This document shows, piece by piece, positions 731 through 53,981 of a stretch of 64,000 nt of DNA. The position numbers and the translations under genes were made by a program. This DNA comes from the human T2T-CHM13v2.0 reference genome, Homo sapiens: NCBI RefSeq assembly GCF_009914755.1, contig NC_060939.1; one strand, written 5' to 3'. The notes below the pieces were generated by a model. That model ran no database searches and had not been told where the DNA came from. It was given only the letters and a program-made list of their open reading frames with translations. Every line of letters begins with the position of its first letter. Position 1 is the first letter of the stretch.

Positions 731-2137
731 CATACATTGAAAGCATATTTTAAGAAGAAGTCACTCTAATAAGCTTTAATTTCGAGTTTATGAATCACAG
801 GATTTTTGGTAGAGGTAAAAACTATACTTACACCGTAAATTAGACATTAAATGCCATTTAATCAGTCAGATAATGATTAATGTTAGAGTAATGTTTGATG
901 GGCCAAGCTGCTAAAACATAAGCAGTTCTAATTAAAATATATAAACTTATCACGTAAAAATAGCAAACTTAGTAATGTATAAAGTGACAGTAGGTCTTTT
1001 TTGCTTAAAAATCAGAGTTCCTGTGTAGTGTCTCTTTATGATCTCTGTAGTAAAAATATTATTTAACGTAGCTTAGTGAGAAGTTTAAGAGGAGTATACC
1101 TTTTACTTTAGGGTGCCCATGCCACTTTGAAGTTATGGAGTGCAAAGTAGTTTCCACACATTAAAAAAAAAAAAAAGATGAAAAAGACTTAAACTTTTCT
1201 AAATTTTATACCTGAACATGTCATTAGAACATGTGCCTTTTGCTTTTAGATATCTGTTTGCCAATGGTTAAGCATTAACCTTGGCAAAATACTCACATGT
1301 CAGATCTGTTAAATGTAATAGTATTTCTGCCCAGTATTTTCTTCAGTTTTAAGTAGAAATATCAACCTTTGATGTCACTGAAATTTCTACTCTGTTGTGA
1401 TACTGAGAACATAAATGTCAGTGAGTTTGATAGCTTAGAAGTGAATCTTTTGCATTCAGTATTTTAGTGCTGTATATTTTCACTTAAGTTATAGTTTTCT
1501 CTTTAAGTCTTAGAAAAAAACATTGGTTTGTTCCTCTTAGCAACATATTGTAATGGATTTTCTGTTGCCGTTTTACAATTTTCAGGTAAAATGTGAACTC
1601 TATTAAAAATAATCTGTCTTTAAAGCATAACTTCACCTTCATTGCTCCATAAAAATAAATGATTTAGATTAAAAGCATTGTATTTTAAACAATTGGTCAC
1701 AGCTGCTTCTGTGAGATTTTCATTTTTGTTACTTAGTTTATTTTTCACCTAGACAAGGGTAAGCAAACAGTATATGATGGGAAAACTGAAACCTTATGTA
1801 CTGTTTCTTTAAGAAACCAGCTTATCCAGGAGGTTTTAGTGTGTCTAACCTAACCTGCTAGCAAGGAAAAGTTCTTTAAAATAATGGATATTAGCCGTAT
1901 CCAATCACAATTATCAGTTTCACTAACAGGGAGGAGATTTTACTCTTCAGCCACTAGAATTGGAGAAGGTGGAGCTTGGTATTCAGGTTTGGTTGCTTTG
2001 GAGTACAGCTTCAAGTGAAGTTAATCTGAGGTGAAGCAAACAGAAAATTGTGGAGGTTTTGTTGGTAGGATTTTTGTTCTAATCTTTTTATGATCCTTTA
2101 TTTTATAATTTTGCTCCTTTATGATTCTGTGTGTGCT

Positions 2138-27830: not shown

Positions 27831-27993
27831 GAATGAATCTGAAGTCTGCTGCAGTAAAACACAGAAGGCTTTAAAATGTTTTCTTGCATAAAATTCAAAA
27901 CTTTTAAGTAGCTGCTTATGAGAATAGGGAAGGCAGAAAGCTAATGTCTGTCTCAAGATACAGGACAGCTGTTTGCTCATCAACCTCAACTGT
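27831..27993 (+). other. ZFAND6: ZFAND6 non-coding 5'UTR exon (163 nt) containing four uORF starts
   Basis: Acceptor tgtgttacag|GAATG at 27830/27831 and consensus donor ACTGT|gtgagt at 27993/27994. Unique non-repeat sequence that matches my recollection of the ZFAND6 mRNA leader. Confidence 0.85.
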
Positions 27994-40885: not shown

Positions 40886-41092
40886 GGAGTCGCCGGTAGC
40901 CACCTAAGATAGGAATGTCAATCAGAAGTTTTCTAGAATCTATCTTCAGATGCAAACAATACAGTGGCCTCTTGGTGAGATTTATTTTACCAGTATAACT
41001 ATATAGCAATATAGGATAAGTATATAGTGATATATTGCTATAAGGAAATTTTTCTCATAAGTTTTTAATAAAGTTTTCTTATAAGTGGGAGG

Positions 41093-43255: not shown

Positions 43256-45708
43256 AAGTATTTGAGTAATGGTACAATTAAGTGCCCCAAAAGAGTGGTA
43301 CAAGCAGCTTCCTTAGGAATATAGAGTAGAAGAGGCTTGAGGTGGTCAGAAAGGGGCCCAGAAGAAATAGAATTTAAGCTGATTTCCTGAAGTAGATAGG
43401 ATTATTACAAGCAGAGTACAAAGGTAGATGGGATATACTAAAAAAGGCGCAATATGAGCTAGAAGCTTGTTTCCAAGAGTGAGCATGATTTGTTTCAATC
43501 AGATGGAAGCAAAAGACCCTCTGCTTTTAGGAAGAATAGAGTAAGAACAGTTATTGAAATTTTGCTATGTGCCACACACTATTTGGATGCTTTTCATATG
43601 CATTATTTAATCTGGTTAGATAAGTGATGTAAGTGCCCTCTTAGTTGAAACCAGGGAAATTTAGTAACAAGTCCAAGCTTTTACAGGTAATAAAATGGCA
43701 AAGCTGGGATTCCAGCTGCTGCCGACCTGACTCCAAGCCCATTCTGTTTACATACAGCATAGTTTCTAGGGAAATTAGGCTGCTCGGGTTAAATTATGTG
43801 AAGGACGAATGCTAGGTTGAGTACTCCTCTCTGGGACAATTATTATACAAACTAAAACCGAAGTAATATGATGAGAACTGGGTGTTTTAGGAGAATTTCA
43901 ATAAATGTATTAGGAGGAGGGGCAGTAAACTGTTAAAAATAACCCAGGTATGAAAAGCAATGAGAACCACAGTTGGGATGGAAAATAAAAGAGGGTGAAG
44001 CATTTCAAAATAAAAATTATTGGAACATGGTGACTTACCTTTAGGGAAGGAAGCACAGGAAAGTAGGTTTAAATGACATGTGTGTGCTGTTATAATTGAG
44101 TTTATGTTGCCATCATTACTATTCTTTTGTCAGAATTTTAATAATTGGTAATGAATTTTCTTTACAGTCTTAAAGCATTTAATCTTGAATTTTTAATCCT
44201 GCTAAGAACTTCCTAGGTAAAAAGACATAAAGGAAAAACAAATTTTTTCAAGAGCATGGTTTTAGCTAATTAAAGCTGCATAATATGTTAACATTGAATA
44301 AATAAATGGAATTTAAAAGGTATACTTAAATGAAACTAATAAGAATTAATGAATGCTCAGAAAATTATAGGTTTTCAGGGATATGATGGACTTTGACAGT
44401 TCTCTTTTTTGTTGTTGGTTTTGTTTTGTTTTGTTTTTTAGATCAAAAGACACTGACTTAGCTGCTTACCAGAAGGGGAACTTGGGCAAGTTACTAAGTC
44501 TTTTTGAGTATCATTTTTTTTTGTTTTTAAAATAGGGATATCAACAGCACCAACATCATAGTGTTCTTGAGAGGATTAAATGAGATATAAATAAACAATA
44601 AAAAGAGTTCCTGGCACATAGTAAACTCTGAATAACTGTTAAGTATTGTCTGGGATGTTAGAGGGAGTAATAGGTTGGGGATTTGACTACGAATGTTATG
44701 AACAGTCAAAAGTCACATTTTATGAATTCTCTTCAATTCATAGGCTTTTGTTTATTATACCATGCTAATCATTTTTAAAGTATCTGGTAGAGTGATCTTA
44801 CTCTCTGTCTCTGGATTTGTGGTTTTATAATTCCACAGTGCAGCAGTTAAGGAATTGTTCTGCCTTTTCTCCCCTTATCCCTTTTCCTCCCTGATCATTT
44901 GAATGCCAGACTGATTGCCCCAAAAAGGTATAGTAGCAAAGGGAGGGAGGCAGGACTTCCAGTTTCTTCATAGCTACCCCATCTATGCCATTACACATTC
45001 AGATAAACTAAATTACTCTTTATGGTTTTTTGTCTTTTTCAGTCTTTCTGACTCTTCATGTAAAGGTACATTTTATGGCCTAACGATTAATAAATAAGAC
45101 TGATTCTTTTTTTTTTTTAAGAATCCTGTGAGAAACCCTTTGTGCCTCTTGAGTTATGAAAATCATTGTTAATTTGATGCCGTGCAGGCAGTTTGACTTG
45201 GGAAAATTGGTAGTGTTACAAGTTTTCAAACTTTAATCTTAATGTTTTGAAGTAATTGTAATGAAAAGCTTAGTGGTCATATTGTACTTTCATCTATGAC
45301 TTTTTACTTGAGTTTTTATGGAAATATATTTATCCTTTTACTGTTTGGTTGCTAGCCATATATTTACCAGTATCATTGGGAGAGTTCCTTTAATTCCTCT
45401 CTTACACTTTAATGTTGTTAATAAGCAGTATAGCATAGTTGGTGGTTTAGACCCGAGTTCCTCAGTCTTTTTTCTCTATTTTTTCCCTAAGGAGCCTTTT
45501 TAGGTTTTTTTTTTGTTTTTTTTTTTCTTAAGTGGCCCCCACCTCCAGAAGATTTTAACTCCAGAGAGATATTGCAGGTCTGTTTATGTATTTTATGTAT
45601 ATCTGTGTTTTATACAAGAGTAAGGGTTTTTGTGACCCTTTCCTCCAAAAATCAGTGTTTTCTCCCTTGAGGGGCAAACTGTCTATACTGAGAGTGCACG
45701 TTTTATAA

Positions 45709-47386
45709 GCAGTGGATTCTCAAAATTTTGGTGTAAATATCCCGAAGGGCTTTTGTGTGTGAGAGTTATATCTAGTGAAATCATATTAAAAATTAAAGCT
45801 GAGAAAATGTTTTAAGTACTAGTTTATTTTAAAATATTTTAGGAAAATAACCACTTTCCTCTCCCCCACACTTGTTAATGAGAAGAGTGGCATTGTTAAC
45901 ACATTTTTGCAGATTTTTTAAAAAGTCTGCCTTAATAACAACATTCTAGTAGTTGCTTTGGCATTCAATCTGTTATAGTGTTATAAAGAAAATCTGGGCT
46001 CATATGTATTTGGAAAGAATATTTTAATAACATTATCAGATAATAGAGGTTCTTTGATATTACACTAAAACTTGACGATAGTTTCTTAAAGGATAGTTGC
46101 AGTGTGAAATTGAAACCATACAAGACAAGCTTGTTCAATCTGTGGCCCAACACAAATTCATAAACTTTCTTAAAGCATTATTTATATATTTATTTATTTT
46201 AGTTCATCCACTGTCGTTAGTATTAATGTATTTTATATGTGGCCTAAGACAATTATTCTTCCACTGTGGCCCAGGGAAGCCAAAAGATTGGATACCCTGA
46301 TATAAAACTTTTTGTCCTGTTACATTAAAATTCATTGGCTTTTCACTTTGAATGGATCTTCTGTTCATGAGTAATTTCTTACTATTTCTTGCTAAGCAAC
46401 CAACATTGGTTGCTTAGAAAATACTGATTCAGTGTCTTAGGATGATATTTCAAATATTGATATAGTAGCAACTAATCACATTTAATTAATATCACCATGA
46501 ATCTTATCAGAAACTCTCAGAATATTGGAGATGCTTGTCAAGGTTTTTTTCACTTGACTGTTGTCTTTGATAACAGATACTATTAGATGTTTGAAGTGAT
46601 GAGTGCACTTTGTTCATTTACAAAAATATCTACTGAATACTCTTTTTTTTTTTTTGAGACGGAGTCTCGCTCTGTTGCCCAGGCTGGAGTGCAGTGGCAC
46701 GATCTTGGCTCACTGCAAGCTCCGCCCCCTGGCTTCATGCCATTCTCCTGCCTCAGCCTCCTGAGGAGCTGGGATTACAGGCTCCTGCCGCTATGCCTGG
46801 CTGATTTTTTGTATTTTTAGTAGAGACGGGGTTTCAATGTCTTAGCCAGGATGGCCTCTATCTCCAGACCTCGTGATCCTCCTGACTTGGCCTCCCAAAG
46901 TGCTGGGATTACAGGCATGAGCCACCGTGCCCAGCCTGAATACTCAGGTCTTAATAACCAGTTTATTAGTCATTCTTTCAAATAAGAAACGTGTTCCATG
47001 AAAAAGGCAGTTCAGTCAGCTCACAACTCAAACAATTGCACAGTGCTTTTTCTTCAGTCTTCATACTTCTTTACACAACAGGAGTGCTTCATGCATGCTT
47101 CCCGGTTTGTCATGTAAAATGTTAAGATGTGTATTCAGGGTCAAGATTTAGTAAAATTAATAATTTTTACTGTGAGAGCATGGTGATGAAGAGTTGACTA
47201 CTAGTACAGTTGGGTGCCACTGCTTTGATTTGGCCCCTTGATAAGGCTTCATCTATTTTTTTCCCCCACAATTGCTATAGCAGCATTTGTCCATATGGTG
47301 AAAAAGGCAAATAACTCACTAGTATTATTATGAAAACAATTTTGACCTCTATAGGGGTATGTGAACCATACTTTGAGAATCATTGA
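45709..47386. mobile_element. Charlie1-like hAT element with nested MER30-like MITE (~46125-46280) and AluY
   Basis: Termini cagtggattctcaaa ... ctttgagaatcattg; internal gagaagagtggcattgt. Confidence 0.7.
46642..46936 (-). mobile_element. AluY-like
   Basis: Alu consensus; TSD tgaatactc. Confidence 0.95.
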
Positions 47387-47390
47387 CGAC

Positions 47391-47538
47391 TTAATAAGTG
47401 ATGGAGCTGGGATTCAATCCAGGTATTGAATTGTGTGTGTGTGTGTGTGTATATGTATGTATATACATATATGTATACATATGTATACATACTATATATA
47501 CACACATTATACATAGAATCCCAGCTCCATCACTTATT
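47391..47538. repeat. Inverted repeat (23-bp perfect arms) enclosing a (GT)n/(AT)n microsatellite
   Basis: aataagtgatggagctgggattc ... gaatcccagctccatcacttatt. Confidence 0.95.
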
Positions 47539-47792
47539 TTATTTATTTATTTTTGAGACAGAGTCTTGCTCTGTTGCCCAGGCTGGAGTGTAGTGGTGCG
47601 ATCCCGGCTCACTGCAACCTCCGCCTTCCCAGGTTCAAGCGATCCTCCTGCCTCAGCCTCCCAAGTAGCTGGGACTACAGGCACACGCCGCCACACCCGG
47701 CTAGTTTTTTTGTATTTTTAGTAGAGATGGGGTTTCACCATGTTAGCCAGGATGGCTCTAGCTCCTGACCTCGTGAGCCACCGTGCCCGGCC
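47537..47792 (-). mobile_element. Alu (Sc/Y-like) with left-arm deletion
   Basis: Alu consensus; TSD tccatcacttatt. Confidence 0.92.
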
Positions 47793-49759
47793 TCCATCAC
47801 TTATTAATTAGCTACAGGACCTTGAGCAATTACTCTGATACCAAAATCAGATAAACATAAAGAAAGCTGCAGACCAGTATTCTTCATAAAATAGGCAAAA
47901 AAGGGGAAAAACCCCAAAATATTTGACATTAGCATTTCTATACTGTGCTTGTTATTTTTTAATGTGATATGTGTGTGTATGTATGTATATATACATATGT
48001 ATATATTTTACAGGGCTGTAGAAGAAAGAGGGTTCTAAAGTAGCATTTATAAAAAGAAAGGTGGCAAAGGTGGGATTCTGAAATGACTTGTCATCATGGA
48101 ATAAGAAAGATGCTTGCCAAAATCCCAAATTGTGTTCATAGGCTAAAGGTTTAACTATCCTCAACAGTTTTAGGACTTTTTTTTTTTAAAGGCAGCTGCT
48201 AAGCCTGCATCATAATTCAGTCAAGTGCATTATTGCTCTTGGTTCTGAAATACGTATAAATCCTCACTACCCATCAACAGTCTTCAGATAATGTAGAGGA
48301 AGAGAAATCTAGTTGGTGACAGTAAACTGTGAATGCTTTTCTTGGGTGTTTACCAGTTCAAGGAAATTTCAGTGGCAAAACATTTTCCTTCTTTGGTTAG
48401 TCTCATTCTTCATGATCTTTGAAATAGACTCATCTGTAATACATATACACCCATTTCGGAGTAACCTTCACTTAGGAGATTGTTGTTTTTTAATAAGAAA
48501 GAGAGCCCGTTAGTACTTCTGTCATGTTATTCATGCCAAAGAACCAGTTGCTTTATGGGAGAAATGGCACATGGGGTTCTTCCATCTGCTGTAATTGATT
48601 ATTGCTTTCATGTGGTTCCCAAACAATTCCCTCAGTCCCAGCATCACTTGCCTGTCTGACTAATGCCTCTGTCCTGTTAGTTTTTAGTATTTTTTAGTTA
48701 TAAATACTTAAAAAAATAAAAATTTCCACCAATTATGCAAGTAATATCTTCATTTTAGAAAATTTAAAAAGTAAAGGTACAAATCAGGGAAAAACACTAG
48801 CTTCACCATCCTGGGATATGCTCATTACTGTCCTTTTTGATGATTAATGGGTGCTCCTTTTTTCCTAATTGGCAAAATATAGTATACGCATTTCATATTG
48901 TGCCTTTTCATTTATTATCGGTATTTCCCTCAATCAAAAAATATTCTAAAATATTTTTAATGACTGCATAACTTTTGTCATTTATATATCATGCTTTTTT
49001 AAAAAAAAACTGCATACATTCTAATGTTATTGTCTGTTTATAAAAATTATAAATAACGCTGTGAAGCACATCCCTTATATTTTATTATTCTTTTTCTGAT
49101 TATACTCTAGTCATTTTGTTGAAGACCCTTAAAGGGGAATGACTGGTTCAGATAGCAATATTTGTTTTTTACAGGGTTCTTGAAGTGAATTGCTAACTTG
49201 CTTTCCAAAAAGATTGAACCAATTTATTATCATTTTACAAGCATTCAGCCCAGTTCTCCATATCTTCACCAGAAATGATACTATGTGAAATGCTTTTGAA
49301 ACAGAATAAATAACACACATTAGCACATGAACTTCCAGCAAAAGTTTAAATGCTTAGATATTAGATAATATAACATACATCAAAACTTATAATGTATATC
49401 TCTTATTACTAGGAGGGTCCAAACTGAGCTAGACTTAATAAGTTATCCTTGACCTTCTGGGGGTAGAGTCTTCAAAACAGATTTCTTTCTCTAGGAGTTC
49501 TTTATACTTTCTGAGCCTGTACAGACTTGGCTTATGTAGAGTGGGTTGGAGATAAAAAGTTCAATGTGTGTCCTTTTGGTTTTTATATTTTTCTCTCCTT
49601 TTTAGCCCTATGTCTTGGGACAGTTATGTAGAATAGTTTGATATATGTGGGCTTTTTTCTTTATCATATAAAAGCAGTTTTGGATAATGTGTGATTGGAA
49701 GTTACGTGTCTGAGTTCTTTGCTAATTTTATGTAATTTTCAGGTGTGCAACTGAGGAAC

Positions 49760-49913
49760 ATGGCTCAAGAAACTAATCACAGCCAAGTGCCTATGCTTTG
49801 TTCCACTGGCTGTGGATTTTATGGAAACCCTCGTACAAATGGCATGTGTTCAGTATGCTATAAAGAACATCTTCAAAGACAGAATAGTAGTAATGGTAGA
49901 ATAAGCCCACCTG
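49760..49913 (+). CDS. ZFAND6: ZFAND6 first coding exon (exon 49743-49913, 17 nt UTR + 154 nt CDS): A20-type zinc finger
   Basis: Acceptor tgtaattttcag|GTGTG, strong Kozak gaacATGG, donor CTG|gtaagt. Translates [51 protein letters not shown], with the A20 finger pattern C-x3-C-x11-C-x2-C. Confidence 0.98.
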
Positions 49914-51126
49914 GTAAGTAATTCTAGTGAAACCCGTCTATATTCATAATTGAAATACAAGTGGATATTTCGGTATACCCAATACCTTTTTCTGCTCTCA
50001 CATTATATTTATATTACCATATTCATATCAGTAAAATTTCTCATTACACATTGTGATTATAATCAGTAGTGAGGAGTTAGGAATGAGTATCATCACTCAT
50101 TGAAAATACTGTAAATTCATACCATAATCTTATTTCTGTGGCTGTGGAATTCTGTTACTTTATTTAGAGGGGACACCTCAAGTGTCTTGGAAAGTAAGGG
50201 AAGAGAGTGATAAAAGAACCTTTGTTCTTTTATCTGGTGTGACTTACAGCTCAAGTAGTTGTTGAAGGAAGGAGTGGATTATTGATAACCACAGCTCAGT
50301 GGACTTGAGAGGAAGCTTTACTCCATTAGGAAGGAGGAGTATCGTGGATTAACTCATAGTAAGGGATGTTCAACCCCAGTTCACTAGGGTTTTTTATGCC
50401 TTTTTGTGTCAAAGGATATTCTTGGAATTGAGGTGGTCTTTTGTTTCAGTAGTTGTATAAGAAGGATCATGCGGATTCCAAGTATAAGCTTTGCAAAAAG
50501 GAAAGTGTTTAGTGTATTCATTTAGGATAGATCTCATGTAGGTTAATGCCTGCATGTATAGATTTTTGTGGTTAATGAAAGTGTAGGCTATTACTTAGTT
50601 CATTTAATATTGTGTGTGAGATCTTGTCTGTTTTTGTTCAAGCCAAAACCTACAACCATTTAACCAAAACTCCAAATTTGCTTAAGGCTAAGATCAAATG
50701 AGTATAAATTGTTTTAAAATTAAGTCATCATCTACATTTATAACCTAATGTACTGAGCATAGATTTTAATTCTGAACCTATATTCTTCACTGCTATGTCA
50801 TCTTATTTAAATATCTCATTTGTTCTCTAGTACTTGGAAGATGTTTTTGAATTAAAGCATTTGGGCTTGGGTGCTATTCAGTCCTAAGAAATAGGAGTTT
50901 ATTAATGTATACAATTTGCAGATGGTTTCCTTCTTGGTTTAAAATTAACATATTTTTCACTGGCAAACCGTTGAAAAATTTTTTAAAAATAATGAACCAA
51001 CATACTACATATTAAAAGAAAACCTCTATACTGTGTTCTGTGGAAAATGGATTTTGATTTTTTTAGATAAGGTCTTAGACTGCTGAGCATATAGAATCAC
51101 TAATACGCAATGTGGTACTGTTACAG

Positions 51127-51235
51127 CAACCTCTGTCAGTAGTCTGTCTGAATCTTTACCAGTTCAATGCACAGATGGCAGTGTGCCAGAAGCCCAGTCA
51201 GCATTAGACTCTACATCTTCATCTATGCAGCCCAG
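51127..51235 (+). CDS. ZFAND6: ZFAND6 coding exon (109 nt), Ser-rich linker
   Basis: ttacag|CAACC ... CCCAG|gtaaga. Continues the phase-1 frame as ATSVSSLSESLPVQCTDGSVPEAQSALDSTSSSMQP(S). Confidence 0.96.
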
Positions 51236-52114
51236 GTAAGATGTACTCTCTGAATTCTAATGAGAATGCTAATAAAAACTAAAGAGTATATTCTGTGTTT
51301 GATTAATAAGGAAAACTACGTAAAGCTACTTTTAGATTAACTGGCCTAAAATTTTATCGTCTGATTATAACTAGTTAGAAAAAGCGATTTCTTGCTTTTA
51401 CCTTGAGGGATCGGGGGTTATCGTTTAAGTCTTAGATTTCTTTTTCAGGCATCTTTTTCTTTCTCATAATATATCCTGACCTACTCCTGAAGTCCTTTGG
51501 AAGCATGTTAAGTGAAATGTTAGTCTTATTCTGCAAGTATTACTACCGTGTATTAAAAAAATACAGTCTTGTCACACATTATCTTTGTTTAATATCATGA
51601 TGTAGTACTCATATTTGTTTATATTGTAATGTGTATATATATATTTTTTAACTCTGAAGTCACATCATTTAGAAGCCTGCATACAGCAATACTGGTTTCA
51701 TTTTTATTCTGCTTTTAGGAACCAATATATTAAGTTCCTACACTGGGGTTCCTTTTTTCCAGTTCATGATAAGATATGTTCAGTTTTGCTATGCCAGAAT
51801 ATCATTTACAGCTTTGTCTTAGGGTTCTTTAAGCATGTCTTTATCATGCTAGTTTTCATTTAGTGAATTCATGTGGTACTTGAAATACACAAAGGACATA
51901 TACACTGTTGCTTTGTTTCCAAGGCAGTAAAATTCTGGTCCAAATTAGTCTCTAGTTTTAAAGCTCTATGATTATGTTTAAGTTATTAAAAAAAAGTATG
52001 TCTGTGTTCTCATCTTAATTATCTACTTAGATATGTTGAACTCTTACTGTGTCACATTAGTTAATATTCATGTGTAGAGATCACCTTTTAAAATGAAATA
52101 TTTTGCTTTTCTAG

Positions 52115-52215
52115 CCCTGTATCAAATCAGTCACTTTTATCAGAATCTGTAGCATCTTCTCAATTGGACAGTACATCTGTGGACAAAGCAGTACCTGAAA
52201 CAGAAGATGTGCAGG
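52115..52215 (+). CDS. ZFAND6: ZFAND6 coding exon (101 nt), linker
   Basis: ttttgcttttctag|CCCTG ... GCAGG|gtttgt. Translates (S)PVSNQSLLSESVASSQLDSTSVDKAVPETEDVQ in frame. Confidence 0.95.
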
Positions 52216-53310: not shown

Positions 53311-53566
53311 AAACAAATTTAAATAAGCTAGGTAGTTCCTCTTGCTTTTTTTTCATACCCAGCAAATACTTGAACCAGTTTGCTTGTTTGTGTAGATTTT
53401 GCCGTAACAAAAGAATATTCTGTGTGGTCAACGTAAATATTCTAGTCCCATCTAGCATATTGTGATAAATTCTTAAATGTTTTAAGTGAATAATTCTTAT
53501 TTCTTAGTTACATCAAAAAATTTAAGGAAGGGCAGAAATGAGGAATCTTTAAAGAAATAAGGAAAA

Positions 53567-53981
<415 letters not shown>

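What the first reader, a model, noticed from the sequence alone, without database searches (positions are those of the whole stretch)
49743..52215. Stop-less circular ORF: a 381-nt ZFAND6 circle predicted to encode an endless tandem A20 zinc-finger polyprotein
Seen in sequence: the three clustered exons total 171+109+101 = 381 nt, exactly 127 codons, and include the strong-Kozak ATG. Back-splicing the donor at 52215 to the acceptor at 49743 gives ...GTG CAG G|GT GTG CAA CTG AGG AAC ATG..., so the 17-nt leader plus the phase-1 G returns in frame to the ATG with no stop (junction peptide ...[16 protein letters not shown]...). The same holds for the single-exon circle (171 nt), the short-acceptor circle (345 nt) and the four-exon circle (495 nt). 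Established knowledge: A20-type fingers bind ubiquitin, and stop-less circRNAs can undergo rolling-circle translation. I recall circZFAND6 isoforms being catalogued but cannot verify that here. Inference: the product would be repeated A20 fingers on flexible Ser-rich spacers without the AN1 domain, i.e. a high-avidity polyubiquitin binder or dominant negative. Caveat: a length divisible by 3 plus six stop-free codons has roughly a 1-in-4 chance of arising at random.
Basis: partly seen in the sequence, partly recalled or inferred. Interest (0 to 1): 0.88.

Follow-up and report, generated by a model that had tools for sequence, protein, structure and literature searches.

The report
Known stop-less circular RNA of ZFAND6
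Three ZFAND6 exons form a well-documented 381-base circular RNA whose reading frame has no stop codon; its endless translation is already published from overexpression and disputed as a vector artefact, and the natural circle is likely translated little or not at all.

Summary
In detail: exons 49743-49913, 51127-51235 and 52115-52215 give a 381-nt circle with a stop-less 127-codon frame. It is hsa_circ_0000643 (circZFAND6): same span and exon sizes, validated by Sanger sequencing and RNase R, and 468 of 672 ZFAND6 back-splice reads in megakaryocytes. The idea is in print: Deng et al. 2025 (PMC12696948) report the 127-aa infinite ORF, a FLAG ladder and ERBB3 co-IP, from overexpression only. Jiang et al. 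2021 (bioRxiv) tested circ-ZFAND6 with stop, splice and AUG mutants and concluded its FLAG signal was not circle-derived. Endogenous data are negative though shallow: 0 polysome junction reads in HEK293, no junction footprint among 757 million megakaryocyte Ribo-seq reads. Verdict: already known; interest low.

The parts
49743..49913 (+). First circle exon (171 nt): back-splice acceptor, 17-nt leader, ZFAND6 start codon, A20 finger, phase-1 donor
   Evidence: exon size 171 in the circRNA table of PMC8906552
49743..49759 (+). 17-nt 5' leader; with the phase-1 G of the donor exon it makes six stop-free codons that return in frame to the ATG
   Evidence: chance level
49793..49864 (+). A20-like zinc finger, Pfam PF01754, residues 12-35, full 24/24 profile match
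   Evidence: E 1.8e-12; closest solved relatives ZFAND5 (2kzy, 7qxw, 9bui) and Rabex-5 (2fid, 2c7m)
51127..51235 (+). Second circle exon (109 nt; alternative acceptor at 51163 gives the 345-nt circle with the same back-splice junction); Ser-rich linker
52115..52215 (+). Third circle exon (101 nt), back-splice donor in phase 1
   Evidence: hg19 80415142 maps to 52215
46613..46943 (-). Alu-type repeat 2.8 kb upstream of the acceptor, inverted relative to the downstream copy (86.4% over 295 nt)
   Evidence: the family name Alu is recalled from the sequence, not from a library call
47534..47795 (-). Alu-type repeat 1.9 kb upstream of the acceptor, inverted relative to the downstream copy (87.2% over 242 nt)
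53565..53870 (+). Alu-type repeat 1.35 kb downstream of the back-splice donor; likely pairing partner that favours circularisation
   Evidence: role inferred, not tested

Best explanation
This is the known AUG-type circular RNA hsa_circ_0000643, back-spliced from three ZFAND6 exons, likely helped by inverted Alu-type repeats in the flanking introns; its frame lacks a stop codon likely by coincidence of leader length and intron phase, and the natural circle is likely translated little or not at all. Shown: the circle, its junction, the open 127-codon frame, the flanking inverted repeats. Inferred: that the repeats drive back-splicing; that the open frame is unselected; that ladders seen from plasmids come at least partly from linear or concatemeric by-products that carry the same junction.
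For: Identity with the catalogued circle: span 2473 in both window and hg19, exon sizes 171,109,101. Chance 0.24, or 0.49 for any circle from this exon; infinite ORFs are predicted for 8% of AUG circRNAs (PMC6487579) and host-frame rolling ORFs for 14% of circRNAs (PMC9242994). 0 of 8 ZFAND5 equivalent circles are stop-less. Jiang et al.: FLAG signal persisted in circ-ZFAND6-stop and AUG mutants, and they conclude it is not translated from the circle; linear concatemers can mimic ladders. HEK293: 0.4 junction reads per million in total RNA, 0 in polysome fractions. Megakaryocytes: a high-confidence circle, yet the only three junction footprints in 757 million reads were on PRDM2 and YEATS2. 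No ZFAND6 string in 8 searched supplement files of the proteomic survey PMC9242994. DRACH motifs not enriched: 9 against 8.2 +/- 2.5.
Against: Deng et al. saw ladder bands that vanished with an ATG mutation, with FLAG placed in front of the ATG, plus ATG-dependent phenotypes. Jiang et al. cite a ribosome-profiling study listing circ-ZFAND6 as ribosome-associated (their ref. 33, which I could not see), lost all signal in splice-acceptor mutants, and saw occasional ~100 kDa bands. I could not see the length of their construct (Table 1 is an image). The leader appears open and of the same register in 27 of 120 listed homologs, from placentals to a marsupial, platypus and a turtle. The endogenous negatives are shallow: most rows shown in the HEK293 table are also 0, and about 2.93 footprints per junction were expected in megakaryocytes.
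Confidence: 0.65

Rival explanations
1. The endogenous circle is translated in rolling fashion into tandem A20 fingers on 103-residue Ser-rich spacers, lacking the AN1/C-terminal degron, and this product acts as a stable multivalent polyubiquitin binder; the reported ERBB3 co-IP would reflect binding to ubiquitin on the receptor.
For: Intact finger in each repeat; ZFAND6 binds K48, K63 and linear chains and C30A abolishes this (PMC11731517); AN1 mutants of ZFAND5/6 are completely stable (bioRxiv 10.64898/2026.06.05.730379); ladder and reciprocal ERBB3 co-IP on overexpression; the fly ortholog acts in trafficking of the receptor Dome (PMC10112927 abstract) and ZFAND5 is linked to EGFR signalling (PMC5342714 abstract); leader register broadly kept in mammals.
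Against: No endogenous peptide or footprint in the sets examined; Deng et al. state they could not examine translation in clinical specimens; Jiang's controls; ZFAND5 lacks the feature; two meerkat gene models imply a leader one base shorter (inferred from protein); rolling products of two of three tested circles were cleared by the proteasome.
Confidence: 0.1
2. The circle is translated at a low, unselected rate by cap-independent initiation; the repetitive product is mostly degraded and has no function.
For: Almost any coding circle can be translated from short IRES-like elements, rolling ORFs are over-represented among MS-detected circle peptides, and such products are often proteasome-cleared (PMC9242994); the ribosome-association citation; strong Kozak context.
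Against: Same endogenous negatives; AUG circRNAs as a class show no Ribo-seq or MS support (PMC6487579).
Confidence: 0.17
3. The circle has a selected function as an RNA, a cytoplasmic microRNA sponge, and the open frame is irrelevant.
For: Cytoplasmic by FISH; sponge claims for miR-6815-3p (PMC12696948 abstract) and miR-575 (PMC11977909 title and passages).
Against: Different papers name different microRNAs; abundance is about 0.2-2.1 reads per million in megakaryocytes and 0.4 per million in HEK293, which is low for a sponge (established stoichiometry argument, my knowledge); I did not test microRNA sites.
Confidence: 0.08

Closest known systems
hsa_circ_0000643 / circZFAND6 and its product circZFAND6-aa (Deng et al. 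2025, PMC12696948; also PMC11977909)
   Same: Identical circle: 381 nt, same three exons and junction, same 127-aa infinite ORF, ladder on tagged overexpression.
   Different: Nothing in the sequence. The paper never mentions the zinc finger or A20 (0 occurrences; ubiquitin only in the reference list) and explains the product by ERBB3 binding.
AUG circRNAs with infinite ORFs (Stagsted et al. 2019, PMC6487579; Jiang et al. 2021, bioRxiv 10.1101/2021.03.23.433163)
   Same: Circle includes the annotated start exon and has no in-frame stop; circ-ZFAND6 was one of Jiang's 30 such circles and one of five studied in depth.
   Different: Stagsted describes AUG circles as generally Alu-independent, whereas this one has close inverted Alu-type repeats.
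Rolling-translated endogenous circRNAs (circPSAP, circPFAS, circABHD12 in PMC9242994; rolling-translated EGFR, seen only as a reference title)
   Same: Stop-less host-frame circle giving concatemers.
   Different: The first three have MS spectra across the junction; I found none for ZFAND6.
A20/AN1 proteins ZFAND6 (AWP1) and ZFAND5 (ZNF216); Rabex-5 A20 finger
   Same: The repeat contains the ZFAND6 A20 finger unchanged.
   Different: The predicted product repeats the finger and lacks AN1 and the C-terminal region, which bind the proteasome and form the degron.

Membership tests
Exonic circRNA (hsa_circ_0000643) | Back-splice between canonical annotated splice sites at the catalogued coordinates | tested here: met
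   AG/GT ends; span 2473 matches hg19 chr15:80412669-80415142; exon sizes match; published primer spans the junction
Exonic circRNA (hsa_circ_0000643) | Junction reads, RNase R resistance, amplification from cDNA only | not testable with these tools
   Reported in PMC12696948 and PMC11977909; read counts in PMC8906552 Table S3
Alu-assisted circRNA | Inverted repeats in both flanking introns | tested here: met
   86-87% inverted pairs at 1.35 kb downstream and 1.9/2.8 kb upstream; such repeats are numerous in these introns in both orientations and no control was run
Alu-assisted circRNA | Deleting the repeats lowers circle formation | not testable with these tools
   Needs a minigene or genome edit
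AUG circRNA with infinite ORF | Contains annotated start codon; length a multiple of three; no in-frame stop | tested here: met
Endogenously rolling-translated circRNA | Ribosome footprints or polysome association at the endogenous junction | tested here: inconclusive
   Literature tables only: 0 in HEK293 polysomes, none in megakaryocytes, one unseen citation in favour
Endogenously rolling-translated circRNA | Junction-spanning peptide in untransfected cells | tested here: inconclusive
   No hit in 8 supplement files of PMC9242994, one file unsearchable; CICADA supplement unreadable; raw proteomes not searchable
Endogenously rolling-translated circRNA | Reporter signal depends on circularisation and not on linear by-products | not testable with these tools
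   Conflicting reports: failed in Jiang; in the Deng section I read the only translation control was an ATG mutant
Selected (conserved) circular ORF | Stop-less frame kept in paralog | tested here: not met
   0 of 8 ZFAND5 circles (4 donors x 2 acceptors) are stop-less; leader 9 or 6 nt
Selected (conserved) circular ORF | Leader length and open frame kept in orthologs, with codon-type constraint | tested here: inconclusive
   Protein gene models only: 27 of 120 in human register, 13 other, 79 uninformative, 1 unmatched; biased toward open leaders; residues vary; ortholog DNA not available
A20-type zinc finger (PF01754) | Full profile match with four Cys ligands | tested here: met
   alignments to ZFAND5 and Rabex-5 fingers
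A20-type zinc finger (PF01754) | Ubiquitin binding by the repeat product | not testable with these tools
   Shown for full-length ZFAND6, not for the concatemer

The most novel reading that the evidence does not exclude
Cells make, from the endogenous circle, a natural tandem-ubiquitin-binding polyprotein: repeated ZFAND6 A20 fingers freed of the AN1 degron, which binds polyubiquitinated receptors such as ERBB3 by avidity and opposes the short-lived linear ZFAND6. It would be an endogenous counterpart of engineered tandem ubiquitin-binding reagents, and would explain the published ERBB3 co-IP and gefitinib effect by a mechanism that paper did not consider.
Probability: 0.08. Interest if true: 0.62.

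Novelty: already known. Interest (0 to 1): 0.17.

Why it matters
As found, it is a rediscovery: the circle, its 127-codon endless frame and a ladder on overexpression are published. Its remaining value is as a test case in the dispute over whether endogenous circRNAs are translated, because two studies of this circle disagree and the junction gives a clean 14-residue tryptic peptide. If the endogenous product exists, the A20 reading gives a concrete mechanism and a one-residue test (C30A) that I did not find in the papers searched.

Tried and rejected
Treating the four stop-less circles as four lines of evidence: rejected, they share one leader and one intron phase; in megakaryocytes the 495-nt circle has 7 of 672 reads and the 171-nt circle is not among the six listed, in a file that was cut when stored. 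A circle-derived retrocopy with scrambled exon order as genomic proof: the one ZFAND6 retrocopy found (G000:C9:35.47 Mb) is colinear. Paralog conservation: fails. m6A-type initiation motifs: not enriched, P = 0.42 against 2000 shuffles. A tandem two-finger natural homolog: P0001 (sturgeon, labelled unverified) duplicates its whole N-terminal part, likely a gene-model duplication, 1 of 120. Mouse circle: no Zfand6 row in the mouse columns of PMC6376117 Table S1 and a four-term paper search gave two unrelated papers; this is not evidence of absence. Ribo-seq paper searches naming ZFAND6 returned only Jiang et al.. A search for circZFAND6 with ubiquitin and zinc finger gave three papers, seen as listings only, none on this question by title.

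Full report
Setting. The window is human chr15 (T2T) inside ZFAND6, as the hub annotation states and one search confirms (G000:C15:77934001-77998000).

Observation. The three exons have canonical ends and total 381 nt. Joined head to tail, the host frame never meets a stop, while the other two frames do. The 171-, 345- and 495-nt circles are also open, but only because each ends at a phase-1 donor and shares the 17-nt leader. The 280-nt circle and all circles starting at the upstream exon stop. In the leader position 73% of window 17-mers are stop-free; assuming leader length is uniform modulo three, the joint chance is 0.24, and 0.49 for at least one canonical circle from this exon. Published base rates agree that the feature is common: 8% of AUG circRNAs (PMC6487579, passages) and 14% of circRNAs in the host frame (PMC9242994, section 9).

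Identity. The circle is hsa_circ_0000643. PMC11977909 (passages) gives 381 nt at hg19 chr15:80412669-80415142, a span of 2473 equal to the window span, with Sanger, cDNA/gDNA, RNase R and FISH checks. PMC12696948 reports the same (section 19), and its forward primer spans the predicted junction (supplement). In the megakaryocyte table of PMC8906552 it has exon sizes 171,109,101 and 468 of 672 reads over the six ZFAND6 circles listed; the 544-nt circle has 183 and the 495-nt circle 7 (file cut when stored). Searches found 28 papers holding circZFAND6 and 25 holding circ_0000643 (listings only except as named).

Biogenesis. A plus-strand Alu-type repeat 1.35 kb downstream pairs in inverse orientation with minus-strand copies 1.9 and 2.8 kb upstream at 86-87% identity. 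This fits intron-pairing back-splicing (established knowledge), but these introns hold many such repeats in both orientations and I ran no control, so the role is inferred.

Prior work on translation. Deng et al. 2025 (abstract, sections 19 and 25, passages, supplement search) describe the ATG-initiated stop-less ORF of 127 aa, staircase FLAG bands lost on ATG mutation, reciprocal co-IP with ERBB3 and ATG-dependent gefitinib sensitisation. The translation evidence comes from a plasmid, and they state they could not examine translation in clinical specimens. The words zinc and A20 do not occur in the main text. Jiang et al. 2021 (abstract, Results, Discussion) screened 30 infinite-ORF circles and studied circ-ZFAND6 closely. 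Its FLAG signal survived a stop placed before the tag and AUG mutation, and they conclude it was not translated from the circle; they also show that linear transcripts can give ladders and carry the junction. In fairness, splice-acceptor mutants lost the signal, ~100 kDa bands appeared occasionally, they cite a ribosome-profiling study listing circ-ZFAND6, and I could see neither that reference nor the length of their construct.

Endogenous evidence. In HEK293 the junction has 0.4 reads per million in total RNA and 0 in polysome fractions (PMC6376117 Table S1), though most rows I saw are also 0. In megakaryocytes, where it is a high-confidence circle, the only three junction footprints in 757 million reads fell on two other circles, against about 2.93 expected per junction (PMC8906552 section 13). 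No ZFAND6 term was found in 8 supplement files of the proteomic survey PMC9242994, one file being unsearchable; the CICADA supplement could not be read. These negatives are consistent but individually weak.

The product, if made. Residues 12-35 match Pfam zf-A20 over the whole profile, and the nearest solved chains are the ZFAND5 and Rabex-5 fingers. ZFAND6 binds K48, K63 and linear chains through this finger, and C30A abolishes binding (PMC11731517, passages). The AN1 domain is required for the rapid ubiquitin-independent turnover of ZFAND5/6, and AN1 mutants are stable (bioRxiv 10.64898/2026.06.05.730379, abstract and section 7). It may explain the ERBB3 co-IP through receptor-linked ubiquitin (inference; the fly ortholog acts in receptor trafficking and ZFAND5 is linked to EGFR signalling, abstracts only). 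I did not find this reading in print, but the library lacks most subscription journals.

Conservation. The paralog at G000:C9:84.51 Mb, whose translation matches the PDB ZFAND5 chain, has a 9- or 6-nt leader, and 0 of 8 equivalent circles are stop-less. For orthologs I had only predicted proteins. Of the 120 best hits listed (of 1400), 79 start at the Met, 27 extend upstream in the human register (manatees, cats, whale, ruminants, bat, pangolin, a murid, Tasmanian devil, platypus, loggerhead turtle and unnamed records), 13 extend otherwise and 1 did not match. But only open leaders can appear in such models, the query included the leader, the residues vary, three of the 27 resemble the chr9 retrocopy, and two meerkat models imply a leader one base shorter (inferred). 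Stagsted et al. found that 5'UTRs of AUG circles are more conserved in general, without ORF-type constraint.

Verdict. A real and correctly described feature, already known and already tested, with conflicting overexpression results and no endogenous proof in the sources I could search. Most likely an abundant AUG circle with a coincidentally open frame and little or no translation (0.65). The functional poly-A20 product remains possible (about 0.1). Novelty: already known. Interest 0.17.

Noticed in passing
window 27831-52215 (exons 27831-27993, 49743-49913, 51127-51235, 52115-52215): The second most abundant ZFAND6 circle (544 nt; 183 of 672 reads in megakaryocytes; listed as an AUG circRNA in PMC6487579) is not stop-less: it would give a single 135-aa A20-only protein without AN1.
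   Followed up: partly
window 51214/52175 (annotated alternative exon ends 51127-51214 and 52175-52215): The annotated intron 51215-52174 starts AT and ends AC but lacks the minor-spliceosome donor consensus (recalled), and both ends sit in the same 7-nt direct repeat; it may be a reverse-transcriptase template-switch artefact in the annotation.
   Followed up: no
L002 (G000:C9:35.469 Mb): Processed ZFAND6 retrocopy, 96-98% identical, colinear, joined to the alternative first exon at window 1979-2064 and skipping exon 27831-27993; frameshifted after about residue 108.
   Followed up: partly
L003 (G000:C19:45.305 Mb): Processed ZFAND5 retrocopy, 97-99% identical to the gene's exons, with an in-frame stop and Alu-type repeats next to it.
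   Followed up: partly
window 40953-40974 and 44442-44485: Two small alternative 5' exons keep the frame open through the leader into the start codon, so leader-derived peptides could also come from linear N-terminally extended isoforms; only the full junction peptide is specific to the circle or a concatemer.
   Followed up: no
proteins P0076 and P0088: Gene models fuse the A20 finger to a PF01557 domain, and one source names P0088 fumarylacetoacetase; FAH is the next gene downstream, so these are read-through transcripts or merged models.
   Followed up: no
proteins P0028 and P0029 (meerkat): The upstream residues fit a leader one base shorter than in other mammals, which would close the circular frame in that species; it could also be an assembly error.
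   Followed up: partly
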